Shown here piece after piece: positions 18,962-23,306 of a stretch of DNA of 41,543 bases. Within the stretch, counting starts at the first letter, position 1. Each line of letters starts with the position of its first letter. The notes beneath the pieces are model-generated. The model was not told where the DNA came from, did not search any database, and was given only the letters and a program-made list of their open reading frames with translations. Source of the DNA: a virus (taxonomy: Duplodnaviria > Heunggongvirae > Uroviricota > Caudoviricetes); IMG/VR virus record IMGVR_UViG_2917413769_000002, positions 1 to 41,543 of that record; one strand, given 5' to 3'. The position numbers and the translations under genes are program-made.

Positions 18962-20515
18962 TCACGCTCCGGCCAGTTTGGCCCAATTATCAAGAGAGGA
19001 ATCCATCGGCGCGTAGTTAATCATCACGGCGTCAGCGAGGTTCGGCGATTTTGTGCCTTCCGGCTGTTTATCCACGAGGATTTTACCCACGGCGTTTTTC
19101 GACCATGTAGGCTGTGAAAGCTCCATCAGCAGGCGGTCAATATTTTCTATCTCGCTGCTTATCGAAATGATTTCGTCGGGGTTGTAGTCCATCCCGTTCA
19201 GCGCGCGGAAGGTGTTACGAAACAGCTTACGAAGATGCCACCAGCTCTGTGCTTTCGCGTTCGCGAAGAAGTCTTTATTCAGGCGCGCCGCTTTACCGTT
19301 ATCACCAGGAACGGCTTCATCTTCCGGATCGAATACGCTACCGCTACCACGGAAAGGCGTAGCTGTGATTGTTCCCCGGCCTTCAGCCTGCCTGAGCTCG
19401 TTTATCACGCGAGCATCGCCACGCGCACCAGCACCCAGACCGTCCTCATCGAAACGGAACTCATCCAGACCGTAATCGTCACAGTACCCAAACGATTTAA
19501 CGACAGAGGCGTAGATGTCGCTGCCAATGCCAGACCATTCGTGAACGTTCTGCAGAAGGAAGCCATAGCGGCAAGAAAAACCGTTTTTGTCTTTCCCTTC
19601 GTCTGCAATATCCATTGCGCCGAGGCGCTGGCCGCTGGGCTGAATACCCAGTTTGATATGTGCGTCGACGGCAGCCTGTACCCATTCAGAAGGAATGAGA
19701 ATCCCCTCTGTGGATGCACTGTAGTTCAGGTCCAGTTCCTGAGCAACGATAATCGGATCATCAATTTTCAGACATTCGTTGCGGTACCACTCATCATCCT
19801 TGCGCGGGTCGCTGCGCCAGTGGAACGTAAACACCGGGATATTTCCGCTGTGACGCTTACGGGCAAACGGGTTATTCATGCCGTTGACGGATGAGAGGTC
19901 TATACGGCAGCGGGTCGTCTGAGAGAGCGCAGCATCGATGAGTAATGGCCGTTTGAGGAATGCCGACTCATCCACGAAATAAAGCGTGGTACGGTCACCA
20001 CGGCCAATGTTATCGCCAGCCTCTCCCTTAATGACCGCGCCCGTTTCCGGGAACTCCACGCGCATGTAAGGAGCATGTTTTTTGTCACTCCATGAACCGC
20101 GAAACTCTACCGGCAGCAGCTCGACAAACTTACGCGCTTTCCAGAACAGTGCTTTCGGGTCGCCGGTACTGTCGACATATTCCTCTTTACGGGAACCGAA
20201 CCCGATCACCATTTCTTTGTTGAACAGGCAAAGCGAACAGGCCAGACCGATAGAGGTCCAGCTCAGCCCCATTTCGCGGCTTTTTTCTGTCAGTCCATGC
20301 TCAAGACTGGCGCGCCTGTCCATGATCCAGTTAATCCATTCCTCCTGGCGGGGAAACAGCAAAAACGGGATGGTCGCAGGCAGGCCATAATCGAGGTTGC
20401 GCGGGTCTGTCGTCATGCCCCAGTCGATGATGAACTGGGCCGGGTTAGTGCGGTAAAACTCACGGAGTGCCGGAAGCATTTCAGGCGCTTTCCTGATCCG
20501 CTCCAGCCTCTCCAT
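18962..20515 (-). CDS. terminase large subunit
   Basis: ATPase-like N-terminal region and nuclease-like C-terminal region; start at ATG 20515 preferred because the ORF-track TTG start (20593) lies inside the conserved intergenic element. Confidence 0.8.
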
Positions 20516-20577
20516 TCTCCACTCAAACACGGCGGTATAGTCCGGTTTTCGGAAGTCAAAGGGGAACGGGATCGGCA

Positions 20578-20632
20578 CAGAAAAATTCCTCAAAAACGCC
20601 CCAATTTAACATAATGGTCGTTACCCGCACTG
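20578..20632 (-). repeat. conserved ~55-bp intergenic element, copy 2 (upstream of terL)
   Basis: minus strand GTGCGGGTAACGACCATTATGTTAAAT...ATTTTTC; see copy 1. Confidence 0.6.
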
Positions 20633-20776
20633 GCGCAACAGCACCCATCACGCAAACGGCGTGAAGCCTCTGTTTTGAAGAGAAAAGTGGTCAAATCGGG
20701 ATGAATAAAACGTGCATAAAACGGGTCAAAAAGTGCATAGCGTTTTTACGGTTCGAAACGCCTGTTTTTGCAATTT

Positions 20777-21380
20777 TCAGCCCATGAATTTTTTGTAGAT
20801 ATCTGCGACCTCATGCGGGGACAGGTTCGCCGCGTCGGCTTTGGCTGCCTCGTCCATATTGGTGAACGATTCGAAAATTTTCGGCGCTCCAAGCTCCATA
20901 AGCAGGGTTTCCGGAACCTTTATTCCCTCAGCCTCAAGCAGCTGCGCCGCCTGCAGCGCGGTGTATTTACCATCTACCTTGTGCTTCATCACCTCACGAA
21001 GCACATCACGCTGACGGTCCTCTTCCCCCATAAACACTGCGGCCGAGTCCAAGAGCTTTGGCAAACACCGCAACATCATTGTGCGTTGGTAAAACATCCT
21101 CGACGGTTGTTTTCAGTCCATCAGGGGATTTGGTGACAATCTTTCGCTTCCGAACGTCCAGGCTTTTACCTGCAACGTTGTTAATCTTTTCCATCAGAAC
21201 TTCGCGAGCCTCGGTAAAGGCACGATTAAAGTCGGCGTGTTCCTTGCGCCAGTTGCGGATAGTCGCCTCGTCAATTTCCAGTCGCTGGGCAACCATACGG
21301 TTTGAGATCTTGTTACGGGCCAGAGCCATATCAATAACGATACCGACGTAGGCCTTCTTAAAGCTATTTTTACGGGCCAT
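20777..21380 (-). CDS. terminase small subunit, interrupted by an apparent frameshift (two ORFs 21006-21380 and 20777-21097)
   Basis: N-terminal ORF has HTH-like start MARKNSFKKAY...; C-terminal ORF continues in another frame with 92-nt overlap; G5 run at 21025-21029 (minus strand) is the candidate shift site. Confidence 0.6.
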
Positions 21381-21428
21381 ACGCTTACCTGAAATCGGGT
21401 GCTGTTTATATTTTGTTCAAAATTATTT

Positions 21429-21529
21429 TTCCGCATTTTGCGTGCGGAATAATTCTGAGAAAAAATCTGCTCCGGGGCCGCAAGCCTGCTGGGTTTGAGT
21501 GCGGAATTAAAAACGTCAAAAAATGCGGA
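21429..21529. repeat. cluster of TGCGGA(A/G) repeats upstream of terS, downstream of the recombinase gene
   Basis: TTCCGCA (21429-21435) and TGCGGAA (21443-21449) form a 7-bp inverted repeat with 7-nt spacer; further direct copies at 21500-21506 and 21524-21529. Confidence 0.6.
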
Positions 21530-21626
21530 GTTATCAATTTTCCGTAAAAACTGCGATTTTATGCCCGGAGGCCGCGCAGAATGGGGAGATAGTGGATCGC
21601 CCTAATATTTCCACTATGTGGATAAC

Positions 21627-22631
21627 TCAGTCCAAATCCATCTCCACCACTTCACCGAACAGGTGACCGTAAACGTCCATTGTGGTTTTGATGTTCGAAT
21701 GCCCAATAAGTCGGGAAACCTTCAGAATATCGACGCCTTTGTTTGCCAGGCGAGATACAGCAAAGTGGCGAAGATGATGGAATCGCTTAATGCCATAGTC
21801 GTTCAGGGTTCTGACGAGAACGCCCTGAGTGCCGTAACTGGTAGCAAGGCATGCGCCGGTAAACTGATTGCAGATAAGAGGCTCAGAGGAACCCAGCTTA
21901 TTTTTATCCAGCAACGCGAAAAGCTCACGCGGCATCCGTACCCGGCGCTCCACTCCTCTTTTCAGCCCCTCATGTATAACGCCGTCAACAACATGCCCCC
22001 GGATGTCGATCCAGTCGGCTGACACGTCGTTATAAGTAACCGCCAGAGCCTCACCGATACGCAGGCCACAAATCCCGAGCCAGCACGCGATACGCTCACG
22101 AACTGGCGCGTTATTCAGTAGCTCCCTGACCGATGATGATGGCGGTATGGTGATGGGTCGACGCTTCCGGCGCGCTGGACGGTCAACAGGGTTAAAAGTG
22201 ATGAGCCGCTTTTCCACCAGCAGGAAGAAAGCCGAACGAATCCAGCGATGGCAGCCGGTGCGAACCGAATCAACGATATCGCGATGGCTGATATGGAGAA
22301 TATTTTTTTCCAGTATCGGCCCGTCTACAGCGAGAAGATCGTGACGGCATTTCGTATATGACGACAGCCGTATGATATTTTTTTCCAGCTTGCCGGCCTG
22401 ATACCCCAGATAAAACAGAATTAACTTTCGGAAAGTCCAGGAATGGTCTATTCCGGTCCAGCTGGCGGTTCGACAATCCAGCTCAATATTCTGTTTTTGC
22501 CAGAAAAGATGTGCGGCATCATCAATATTCTTAAAGATGCGGCGGCGCCCATGACCGGATTTTTCATCCTTCCAGTGGACGTAATATTTTGATTGTCCAT
22601 TGGCATCAGTGGATTCTTTTATCGAAGCCAT
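21627..22631 (-). CDS. tyrosine site-specific recombinase (integrase family) with arm-binding-like N-terminal domain
   Basis: C-terminal catalytic signature R (LRIGEALA), H-x-x-R (HHLRH) and Tyr (…TTMDVYGHL); N-terminus GQSKYYVHWKDEKSGHGRRRIF resembles AP2-like integrase arm-binding domains; ATG 22631 with GAGGA upstream. Confidence 0.75.
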   Translation of the reverse strand: MASIKESTDANGQSKYYVHWKDEKSGHGRRRIFKNIDDAAHLFWQKQNIELDCRTASWTGIDHSWTFRKLILFYLGYQAGKLEKNIIRLSSYTKCRHDLLAVDGPILEKNILHISHRDIVDSVRTGCHRWIRSAFFLLVEKRLITFNPVDRPARRKRRPITIPPSSSVRELLNNAPVRERIACWLGICGLRIGEALAVTYNDVSADWIDIRGHVVDGVIHEGLKRGVERRVRMPRELFALLDKNKLGSSEPLICNQFTGACLATSYGTQGVLVRTLNDYGIKRFHHLRHFAVSRLANKGVDILKVSRLIGHSNIKTTMDVYGHLFGEVVEMDLD

Positions 22632-22695
22632 ACTGAACAATCCTCACTCAAAAAACATTATCAAAGCCACTCGGTGAATGGCTTTTGTAATGAAT

Positions 22696-22878
22696 TTATC
22701 GGACCAGCGTTACTTTCGTTTTTGTAAACCGGCGCACCAGTCGAGCGGCTTCACGCTGGAGCTCGCCTTCGATCTGAGGAGTAAGTGGCTTACGTGCATA
22801 TTTCCGGCTTATTTCTTCAATCACCTGGTTTATTTGCTCATTACTCGGCGGGATTACTTCGACATTTAAGCGAGCCAT
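22696..22878 (-). CDS. small hypothetical protein (possible recombination directionality factor)
   Basis: 60-aa basic ORF translationally coupled (TGATG) to the upstream membrane protein gene and lying just upstream of the recombinase. Confidence 0.4.
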   Translation of the reverse strand: MARLNVEVIPPSNEQINQVIEEISRKYARKPLTPQIEGELQREAARLVRRFTKTKVTLVR

Positions 22879-23306
22879 CAAGCCACCTCTTTTTCGGTTA
22901 GTTTCTCGACCTTATCACGAGCAAGCGAACAGCACAGGCGCACAAACAATGACGCTATTACGTAGGCTACCGCTGTAAACACCCACCCACCGTATGCAAG
23001 CATGGAAGCCCCCAGCACCAGGCAGAACCATCCCCATACTCTCGCTATTGCGTTCTTGCGCTTAGCAAAGCGTTCAAGGTATTCAATACCCTCCCGCCGG
23101 GACTTATCATCCTTTGAATACTCGACACCAAACGTAATAATGAGAGCTAACAAACCAACTACCGCGCCAAGCAATACGATCACCCAGTAGGCGGCGGCAA
23201 CAACTCTCAATAAAGAACCGGCACCTGTAGTAACAGCAAAAAGCAAAGCGGCGAGCAGCGCGTAAAAAGTTATTTTTGTTGCTGCATCAGTGAAAAATTT
23301 CTTCAT
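22878..23306 (-). CDS. integral membrane protein, ~4 predicted TM helices
   Basis: ATG 23306 with AAGGA upstream; four hydrophobic segments read from the translation; follows the Rz terminator. Confidence 0.5.
   Translation of the reverse strand: MKKFFTDAATKITFYALLAALLFAVTTGAGSLLRVVAAAYWVIVLLGAVVGLLALIITFGVEYSKDDKSRREGIEYLERFAKRKNAIARVWGWFCLVLGASMLAYGGWVFTAVAYVIASLFVRLCCSLARDKVEKLTEKEVA

What the first reader, a model, noticed from the sequence alone, without database searches (positions are those of the whole stretch)
21429..21529. Cluster of TGCGGA(A/G) repeats between the recombinase gene and terS
Four copies of a TGCGGA-type motif lie within 100 bp: an inverted pair TTCCGCA-N7-TGCGGAA at 21429-21449 and direct copies at 21500-21506 and 21524-21529. 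The position, immediately 3' of a tyrosine recombinase gene and 5' of terS, fits either recombinase arm/core binding sites (an att-like site) or a terminase small-subunit recognition (pac-like) site.
Basis: seen in the sequence. Interest (0 to 1): 0.5.

Follow-up and report, generated by a model that had tools for sequence, protein, structure and literature searches.

The report
Small-terminase recognition repeats upstream of terS
The TGCGGA repeats are real, conserved DNA sites that most likely tell this prophage's small terminase which DNA to package; they are not sites for the neighbouring recombinase, though that recombinase is oddly always found next to this terminase gene.

Summary
They lie between a tyrosine recombinase gene (22640..21627, minus strand) and an HTH small-terminase gene (terS, 21380..20777, frameshifted here).

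In one sequence the cluster is only modestly unusual (p about 0.03). Comparison settles it. In 57 distinct related intergenic regions the copies are invariant islands with fixed order and spacing.

They occur in three "types", and every copy switches together: TCCGCA (window), GCCGCA or GTCGCA. The type matches recognition-helix residues 39 and 43 of the adjacent TerS (A/N, T/R, I/R).

Recombinases identical at all 337 residues sit beside different types. The same concerted switching recurs in two distant clades (Providencia; Serratia/E. ludwigii).

Best explanation: these are TerS binding sites, the recognition part of a pac or cosB-like packaging site, comparable to the lambda cosB R sequences. 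The recombinase-site reading of these repeats is rejected.

One thing is unexplained. A tyrosine recombinase lies directly upstream of this TerS family in every lineage examined. A separate 75-bp element next to its stop codon varies with the recombinase clade.

The parts
21524..21534 (-). Repeat R3, the copy farthest from terS. Plus strand TGCGGAGTTAT; in gene orientation ATAACTCCGCA.
   Evidence: Invariant in 21 distinct type-A relatives. Lies at -149 from the terS ATG in 22 of 27 type-A regions.
21500..21510 (-). Repeat R2. Plus strand TGCGGAATTAA; in gene orientation TTAATTCCGCA.
   Evidence: position -125 in 23 of 27 regions.
21443..21453 (-). Repeat R1. Plus strand TGCGGAATAAT; in gene orientation ATTATTCCGCA.
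   Evidence: position -68 in 25 of 27 regions.
21425..21435 (+). Inverted copy R0 (ATTTTTCCGCA). It forms an inverted pair with R1 across a 7-bp spacer.
   Evidence: I4: 11-nt arms, 91% complementary. Present in 23 of 27 type-A regions. An equivalent inverted pair with a 7-bp spacer, built from own-type sequence, occurs in L056 and L150; L151 has the same pair with a similar short spacer.
21411..21422 (-). Invariant block TTTTGAACAAAA (gene orientation) between the repeats and the terS ribosome-binding site. Function unknown.
   Evidence: Invariant in both the type-A and type-B alignments.
21547..21559 (-). Invariant AAATCGCAGTTTT (gene orientation). It marks the mosaic boundary between the recombinase-linked part and the TerS-linked part of the intergenic region, and resembles a degenerate xxCGCA site.
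   Evidence: Related ATCGCA motifs occur in the Providencia and L152 intergenic regions.
21552..21626 (-). Element E, the recombinase-proximal conserved element. It carries an inverted pair ATAGTGGA (21589-21596) / TCCACTAT (21610-21617) plus a further related direct copy. It is not part of the TerS repeat array and is a candidate recombinase site.
   Evidence: (I10). Its motifs change with the recombinase clade (CTATAT three times in L036/L053), not with the TerS type.
20777..21380 (-). terS (HTH small terminase). In this window it is split into 124-aa and 106-aa ORFs by one extra G in a G-run (window 21025-21029). The predicted recognition helix is residues 38-47, containing A39 and N43.
21627..22640 (-). 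Tyrosine recombinase, 337 aa (PF00589). It is always the gene directly upstream of this TerS family.
18962..20593 (-). terL (large terminase). The likely true start is the GTG near 20577.
   Evidence: annotated as TerL by NCBI; PHROG 2, E 8e-28.

Best explanation
The three direct copies and one inverted copy of (A/T)-rich-TCCGCA(C/T), lying 55-150 bp upstream of terS, are the sequence-specific binding sites for the N-terminal helix-turn-helix domain of the adjacent small terminase. They form the recognition part of the phage's packaging-initiation site, either pac or a cosB-like site.

Proposed mechanism. Several HTH domains of an oligomeric TerS each dock on one xxCGCA site. Invariant residues I41, W44, R45 and K46 hold the common CGCA core. 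Recognition-helix positions 39 and 43 read the two or so bases 5' of the core. The assembled complex marks this DNA for TerL, which cuts nearby and starts packaging.

Related phages have diverged into packaging-specificity classes by changing TerS and all of its sites together.

Shown here: the presence, conservation and spacing of the sites; the concerted type switches; the association with TerS residues; and the dissociation from the recombinase.

Inferred, not shown: physical binding, the oligomeric state of TerS, the position and direction of the cut, and whether the phage packages by pac or cos.
For: 1. In the aligned intergenic regions (21 type-A, 33 type-B, out of 57 distinct sequences) the repeats are invariant islands in variable spacers, with spacings of 24 and 57 bp kept.

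2. There are three types, and all copies differ in the same way: TCCGCA, GCCGCA and GTCGCA. Extra or inverted copies in the longer variants (L091, L109, L056) are also of the locus's own type.

3. The type separates perfectly by TerS residues 3, 5, 39, 43 and 49 among 35 distinct TerS N-termini. Residue 39 has three states that match the three types: A, T and I. The same holds in 12 species genomes.

4. The structure model places residues 38-47 as the second helix of the HTH, so residues 39 and 43 are helix positions 2 and 6 (pLDDT 76-83 in this region).

5. The mosaic boundary is at AAATCGCAGTTTT. The repeats and the TerS N-terminal half diverge together, while the recombinase and the TerS C-terminal half stay nearly identical.

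6. Independent replicates exist. In Providencia, TACGACCCC, TACGCACCC and TGCGCACCC each occur at the same three positions, alongside HTH changes. In Serratia versus E. ludwigii, AATTAATTAACACG and AATTAACCCGCAC occur in the same layout of a separate direct copy followed by an inverted pair, with recognition helices QTISKW versus GTIAAW. Yersinia TerS has the window's ATIRN helix and has TCCGCA and TTCGCA upstream.

7. The protein looks like a TerS. It is the only candidate upstream of TerL. Its ORF overlaps the terL start in several loci. Its C-terminal tail swaps with the TerL family. It gives weak terS profile hits.

8. There is precedent: lambda-like cosB R sites and TerS recognition-helix specificity classes (PMC4669245).
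Against: No binding or packaging data exist for any member of this group.

The TerS assignment is by position and weak similarity only. Pfam Sf6_terminase scored 18.6 bits against a cut-off of 27. There was no significant hit in the PDB by sequence or by fold. The overall model confidence is modest (pLDDT 64).

The repeats and the HTH domain are physically linked, so part of the association could be hitch-hiking. Type C is a single lineage.

In Providencia, two types share the same recognition helix (GAIRK). Residues outside that helix must therefore also contribute to specificity.

The repeats could serve TerS-mediated regulation rather than, or in addition to, packaging.

The window's own terS is frameshifted, so the site may be idle in this particular prophage.
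Confidence: 0.72

Rival explanations
1. The repeats are accessory-protein sites of a site-specific recombination locus. The HTH protein would act as an architectural or directionality partner of the adjacent tyrosine recombinase, whose core site is element E, rather than as a packaging signal, or in addition to being one.
For: The recombinase-intergenic-HTH gene arrangement is universal across all clades examined. The intergenic region is bipartite, with a recombinase-linked half and an HTH-linked half. The two proteins co-diverge.
Against: The HTH protein has TerS hallmarks. Its C-terminal tail swaps with the TerL family, its ORF overlaps terL, it gives terS profile hits, and no other terS candidate is present. 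Recombinase and TerS types recombine freely with each other, which argues against a tightly co-adapted protein pair.
Confidence: 0.1
2. The repeats are operators through which TerS, or another phage regulator, controls transcription or translation of terS-terL, with no role in DNA packaging.
For: They lie 55-150 bp upstream of the terS start. HTH proteins commonly autoregulate.
Against: No sigma-70-like promoter is predicted in the intergenic region. The genes lie inside a long co-oriented late gene block downstream of an antiterminator. Arrays of 3-4 sites spread over 100 bp, with specificity classes, match known terminase recognition sites. This reading is not mutually exclusive with the main explanation.
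Confidence: 0.1
3. The repeats are arm-type or core-type binding sites of the adjacent tyrosine recombinase (an att-like site).
For: An inverted pair with a 7-bp spacer resembles a core-site layout. The repeats lie within 200 bp of the recombinase gene. A low-confidence model suggests an N-terminal beta-beta-beta-alpha domain in the recombinase.
Against: Identical recombinases (0 of 337 differences) flank type A (window) and type B (L019). A second identical pair is L066 and L022. Providencia recombinases 97-99% identical flank three types. The inverted pair is absent from most type-B relatives. No partner site was found. These prophages integrate with a different integrase at their end.
Confidence: 0.03
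4. The inverted pair is just an intrinsic terminator or attenuator hairpin between the recombinase gene and terS, and the direct copies are chance.
For: The terminator scan flags 21449..21429 on the minus strand: a 7-bp stem, a 7-nt loop and an A/T-rich tail. The single-sequence repeat statistic is only p about 0.03.
Against: The hairpin is not conserved in type B, whereas the direct copies are. There is no proper T-run after the stem. The concerted type switching of all copies in three clades cannot be chance.
Confidence: 0.03

Closest known systems
cosB R sequences of lambda-like phages and their TerS (gpNu1) specificity classes: lambda, 21 and N15/Monarch
   Same: Both have several short repeats just upstream of the terS gene: three R sites with one inverted in lambda, three direct plus one inverted here. 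In both, related phages fall into specificity classes in which recognition-helix residues and site bases change together (PMC4669245).
   Different: The TerS family is different. Here it is an Sf6/phBC6A51-like HTH protein of 200 aa, not the gpNu1 winged helix. The motif (xxCGCA), the spacing (24 and 57 bp) and the orientations all differ. No cosN/cosQ or IHF site has been identified, and whether this phage uses cos or headful packaging is unknown. Nothing has been tested biochemically.
P1 pac site: seven TGATCA/G hexamers within pacA
   Same: Both are clusters of short repeated elements that define the terminase recognition site of a temperate enterobacterial phage (PMC10028697).
   Different: The P1 hexamers lie inside the terS-equivalent gene and contain Dam GATC sites that regulate cutting. 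The repeats here are intergenic and contain no GATC. GATC occurs instead in the neighbouring element E.
SPP1/SF6 pac recognition by the G1P small terminase ring
   Same: An HTH small terminase recognises a pac region that begins upstream of its own gene, using multiple HTH domains (abstract of PMC4737164).
   Different: That work stresses largely sequence-independent, DNA-shape-based contacts. Here the concerted base changes argue for base-specific readout.
P1 Cre/loxP, and HNH-terS-terL modules of HK97-like cos phages (both from my own knowledge, not tested here)
   Same: In both, an extra DNA enzyme is kept close to the packaging site or terminase genes. In P1, lox lies near pac so that it falls within the terminal redundancy. 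In HK97-like phages, the HNH gene lies directly upstream of terS and assists cos cutting.
   Different: This is only an analogy for the conserved recombinase, not for the repeats. No evidence here shows that the recombinase acts in cyclisation or packaging.

Membership tests
Terminase (TerS) recognition site of a pac/cosB type | Located at or next to the terS gene | tested here: met
   The repeats lie 55-150 bp upstream of the terS ATG.
Terminase (TerS) recognition site of a pac/cosB type | Several copies of a short motif, conserved among relatives | tested here: met
   3-4 copies, invariant in 21 type-A and 33 type-B distinct intergenic regions, with spacing conserved.
Terminase (TerS) recognition site of a pac/cosB type | Site sequence co-varies with the TerS DNA-binding residues (specificity classes) | tested here: met
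   Types A, B and C correspond to A39/N43, T39/R43 and I39/R43. Replicated in the Providencia and Serratia/E. ludwigii clades.
Terminase (TerS) recognition site of a pac/cosB type | Bound by TerS and required for packaging initiation, with a terminase cut nearby | not testable with these tools
   Needs EMSA or footprinting, virion-end mapping and genetics.
Small terminase protein (Sf6 gp1 / phBC6A51-type HTH TerS) | Significant match to a curated TerS family or to a solved TerS structure | tested here: inconclusive
   Pfam PF20901 scored 18.6 bits against a cut-off of 27. PHROG terS families gave E 9e-6 to 4e-4 on the HTH region only. NCBIfam TerS_not_xtmA scored 15.6 against 120. The PDB hits 2ao9 and RppC had E above 0.2. 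Foldseek's most probable match was 2ao9 (probability 0.66-0.69, E about 0.2); the lowest E-value hit was 3hrs at 0.07; none were significant.
Small terminase protein (Sf6 gp1 / phBC6A51-type HTH TerS) | Gene directly upstream of terL, with a modular N-terminal DNA-binding domain and a C-terminal TerL-matching tail | tested here: met
   It lies upstream of TerL in all loci examined. The C-terminal tail changes when the TerL family changes, for example to Terminase_6N or Terminase_3.
Tyrosine-recombinase att or core site | Inverted recombinase-binding elements flanking a 6-8 bp crossover region, conserved with the recombinase | tested here: not met
   The N7 inverted pair exists in type A but is absent from most type-B relatives, which carry the same recombinase.
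Tyrosine-recombinase att or core site | Site sequence tracks the recombinase | tested here: not met
   Recombinases identical at 337/337 residues occur with types A and B. Recombinases 97-99% identical occur with three Providencia types.
Tyrosine-recombinase att or core site | A partner site exists elsewhere (attB, or a second copy) | tested here: not met
   There is no second cluster in the window. The intergenic region matches only the same prophage in 5 of 5426 E. coli genomes. Short cores would escape this search.
Intrinsic terminator | A GC-rich hairpin followed by a T-run, conserved among relatives | tested here: not met
   There is a weak scan hit, but the hairpin is absent in type B and no Rfam family matches.

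The most novel reading that the evidence does not exclude
The recombinase, its 75-bp element E and the TerS repeats may form one functional unit at the packaging origin. One version is a Cre/lox-like system with a single site per genome. The site would be held next to pac so that it falls in the terminal redundancy of packaged DNA, allowing cyclisation or multimer resolution without host recombination. A second version is that the tyrosine recombinase has been recruited as a third component of the terminase initiation complex, as HNH nucleases are in HK97-like phages. Either version would explain why this recombinase is the invariable upstream neighbour of this TerS family, while TerL type and all other neighbours change.
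Probability: 0.2. Interest if true: 0.8.

Novelty: new member of a known kind. Interest (0 to 1): 0.5.

Why it matters
It gives a concrete, testable packaging-recognition site and a proposed amino-acid-to-base code (TerS residues 39 and 43 against the two bases 5' of CGCA). This applies to a widespread but unannotated TerS family of Enterobacterales prophages, which NCBI currently labels "hypothetical protein".

The natural specificity classes predict which prophages can and cannot cross-package each other's DNA, or plasmids carrying the site. That is relevant to transduction and to engineering packaging signals.

The strictly conserved recombinase neighbour is a separate open question. It could reveal a new link between site-specific recombination and DNA packaging.

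Tried and rejected
Yersinia phage YP3 at first looked like a natural variant with the recombinase fused to terL, and with terS elsewhere without the recombinase. A whole-record comparison showed the record is a patchwork, with small pieces appended at 30.9-36.4 kb. It was discarded as evidence.

Rfam search of 20400-22900 gave no match.

The promoter scan found no sigma-70-like site in the intergenic region.

RNAalifold on element E gave a weak consensus hairpin (-3.2 kcal/mol, little covariation), so it is not a convincing RNA element.

PDB sequence search and Foldseek for TerS gave nothing significant.

The single-sequence AlphaFold model of the recombinase was poor (pLDDT 38) except for residues 1-50.

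Pfam on the recombinase N-terminus gave nothing. PADLOC gave nothing for either protein.

Search for a partner site in E. coli genomes found only the same prophage.

Literature searches found no report of this recombinase-terS pairing or of this pac site. The Tyrovirus paper was read and is unrelated.

Contig ends falling in this region in several metagenome loci were considered as possible packaging termini. This was rejected as uninformative, because hypervariable regions also break assemblies.

Full report
**Observation.** The sequence is as described: TTCCGCA at 21429-21435, a 7-bp spacer, TGCGGAA at 21443-21449, TGCGGAA at 21500-21506 and TGCGGAG at 21524-21530. The direct copies extend to 11 nt (TGCGGAATAAT, TGCGGAATTAA, TGCGGAGTTAT) with spacings of 57 and 24 bp. 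The motif is not enriched in the window as a whole (11 observed, 14.4 expected). Four of the 17 hexamer hits lie within 102 bp. In dinucleotide shuffles of the 246-bp intergenic region, some comparable 6-mer reached four copies in 162 of 5000 trials. From one sequence alone the cluster is therefore suggestive (p about 0.03), not compelling.

**Context.** All genes here are on the minus strand. In order they are:
- lysozyme and spanin-like genes;
- a 337-aa tyrosine recombinase (22640..21627, PF00589, with catalytic R, HxxR, H and Y visible);
- the 246-bp intergenic region;
- an HTH protein;
- TerL (from about 20577 to 18962);
- a DUF1073 portal.

In the window the HTH gene is split into 124-aa and 106-aa ORFs by one extra G in a G-run (21025-21029). 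Removing that G restores a 200-aa protein 98% identical to intact relatives. Related E. coli prophages have a separate Arm-domain integrase at the prophage end. The recombinase here is therefore not their integration enzyme.

**Conservation.** Searches with both proteins returned 126 viral-contig loci and 12 species genomes, covering Enterobacter, Citrobacter, Pantoea, Kosakonia, Erwinia, Trabulsiella and others. They contain 57 distinct intergenic sequences. Within them the repeats are invariant islands in variable spacers, at about -149, -125 and -68 from the terS ATG. In the window's type there is also an inverted copy at -55.

The repeats come in three types, and all copies of a locus share the same variant. 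In gene orientation these are:
- ..TCCGCA(C/T), type A, the window;
- GATA(T/C)GCCGCA(C/T), type B;
- GATATGTCGCA(C/T), type C, a single lineage.

Longer variants (L091, L109) and L056 carry extra or inverted copies, again of their own type. Neutral drift does not change three or four dispersed copies in the same way. A sequence-specific reader with altered specificity is implied.

**Which protein reads them.** The region is mosaic. The recombinase gene, the 75 bp after its stop codon and the C-terminal half of the HTH gene are nearly identical between type-A and type-B relatives. The repeat block and the N-terminal half of the HTH gene diverge together, with the boundary at an invariant AAATCGCAGTTTT.

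Among 35 distinct N-terminal sequences, five positions separate types A and B perfectly: 3, 5, 39, 43 and 49. Position 39 has three states matching the three types: A39/N43 with TCCGCA, T39/R43 with GCCGCA and I39/R43 with GTCGCA. The 12 species genomes agree. An AlphaFold model (overall pLDDT 64, but 76-83 over residues 11-60) gives helices 27-34 and 38-47. Residues 39 and 43 are thus positions 2 and 6 of the HTH recognition helix, while I41, W44, R45 and K46 are invariant across the whole family.

The recombinase does not track the repeats. The window (type A) and L019 (type B) encode recombinases identical at all 337 residues, and L066 (A) and L022 (B) form a second identical pair.

**Independent replicates.** More distant TerS relatives (30-42% identity) were found in Erwinia phage LS-2018a, Yersinia, Providencia, Sodalis phage phiSG1, Serratia, E. 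ludwigii and metagenome contigs.
- In Providencia, three loci with recombinases 97-99% identical carry TACGACCCC, TACGCACCC or TGCGCACCC at the same three positions. TerS HTH changes go with them: PINNC versus KISNR in helix 2, and GAIRK versus AVIRK in helix 3.
- Serratia and E. ludwigii share a layout of a separate direct copy followed by an inverted pair (7-bp spacer in Serratia, similar in E. ludwigii), like the window's. The site is AATTAATTAACACG in Serratia and AATTAACCCGCAC in E. ludwigii. Their recognition helices are QTISKW and GTIAAW.
- Yersinia TerS has the window's ATIRN helix and has TCCGCA and TTCGCA upstream.

Across the family the sites share an xxCGCA theme.

**Is the HTH protein TerS?** Database support is weak: Pfam Sf6_terminase is below threshold, PHROG terS hits cover the HTH region only, and nothing is significant in the PDB. 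Three other points favour TerS. It is the only candidate upstream of TerL in every locus. Its ORF overlaps the terL start in several loci. Its C-terminal tail changes whenever the TerL family changes, between the window-type TerL, Terminase_6N and Terminase_3. This is the expected TerS architecture. I rate the assignment at about 0.85.

**Mechanism proposed.** Multiple HTH domains of an oligomeric TerS dock on R3, R2, R1 and R0. This marks the DNA for TerL to cut nearby and begin packaging. Binding, oligomeric state, cut position, packaging direction and the choice between pac and cos are all inferred. The closest documented analogue is lambda-like cosB. It has three R sequences, one of them inverted, upstream of Nu1. 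The lambda, 21 and N15 specificity classes arise from matching recognition-helix and R-site changes (PMC4669245). P1 pac, with seven TGATCA/G hexamers, is a looser analogue (PMC10028697).

**Rivals.**
- Recombinase arm or core sites are rejected by the identical-recombinase test, by the missing inverted pair in type B, and by the lack of a partner site.
- A terminator hairpin is flagged weakly but is not conserved.
- A purely regulatory operator cannot be excluded and is compatible with the main model. No promoter was predicted.
- A role as accessory sites in a recombination complex is kept alive only by the observation in the next paragraph.

**Unexplained.** In every locus with enough upstream flank, a PF00589 recombinase of 333-364 aa lies directly upstream of this TerS family, separated by about 180-370 bp. 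This holds across all clades examined. By contrast, TerL families, the genes upstream of the recombinase, and insertions between terS and terL (HicAB, serine resolvases) all vary. Recombinase and TerS co-diverge: 27-43% and 30-42% identity between clades.

The 75 bp after the recombinase stop codon (element E, 21552-21626) carries an inverted pair of CCACTAT motifs (ATAGTGGA/TCCACTAT on the plus strand) plus a related direct copy. In the clade whose recombinase is 54-59% identical, all three places carry CTATAT instead, although TerS and its repeats are ordinary type B. E therefore tracks the recombinase and is the better candidate for its site. There is only one E per genome. That pattern fits a resolution or cyclisation system of the lox or dif kind, or an accessory role in packaging. 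None of this is tested.

**Verdict.** The pac-like reading is well supported by comparative evidence. The recombinase reading of these repeats is rejected. The repeats are a new member of a known kind, with a notable unexplained neighbour.

Noticed in passing
window 21627-22640 with 20777-21380; loci L004-L152: A tyrosine recombinase gene is directly upstream of this TerS family in every locus with enough flank. This holds across clades as distant as 27-43% (recombinase) and 30-42% (TerS) identity, while TerL family and other neighbours vary. No function is known for the pairing.
   Followed up: partly
window 21552-21626: A 75-bp element (E) lies directly after the recombinase stop codon. It has an inverted pair ATAGTGGA/TCCACTAT plus a related direct copy. 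In the divergent recombinase clade (L036, L053) all three places carry CTATAT instead. GATC(C) motifs recur at this position in all clades. It is a candidate recombinase site or pac cleavage region.
   Followed up: partly
window 21025-21029: The window's terS carries one extra G in a G-run, splitting it into 124-aa and 106-aa ORFs. This is either a sequencing error or a packaging-defective prophage.
   Followed up: yes
window 20578-20776: An unusually long spacer of about 200 bp separates terS and terL. It is 100% conserved between the window and the E. coli relatives even where terS differs, and contains repeated TATGCAC(N)TTTT and TTTGACC motifs. Some relatives (L129, L138, L060, L051) have an extra 330-470 bp there.
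   Followed up: no
L149 (Yersinia phage YP3, PV092592.1): This public 'complete genome' record is a patchwork. Small genes, including terS, are missing from their normal places and are appended as fragments at 30.9-36.4 kb. It also has a tandem duplication of the R1 region upstream of terS.
   Followed up: yes
L141 (Elizabethkingia phage EKP1), L135 (Chryseobacterium sp. contig): Records attributed to Flavobacteriia hosts carry this Enterobacterales-type module at 71-77% protein identity to the recombinase and TerS queries. The host assignment may be wrong, or the records may reflect contamination.
   Followed up: no
L142, L144, L145, L146, L148, L152: A serine recombinase of about 200 aa (Resolvase + HTH_7) also sits beside the terminase genes in most distant-clade loci, either between terS and terL or just after terL.
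   Followed up: no
window 18962-20593: The TerL of this phage group matches no Pfam terminase family at E <= 0.01. It is recognised only by PHROG 2 and by NCBI naming.
   Followed up: no
window 21254-21259: A fifth TCCGCA (gene orientation) lies inside terS at +121, within the codons for A-T-I-R-N of the recognition helix itself. It is conserved in 24 of 27 type-A relatives. It may simply follow from the coding sequence.
   Followed up: partly
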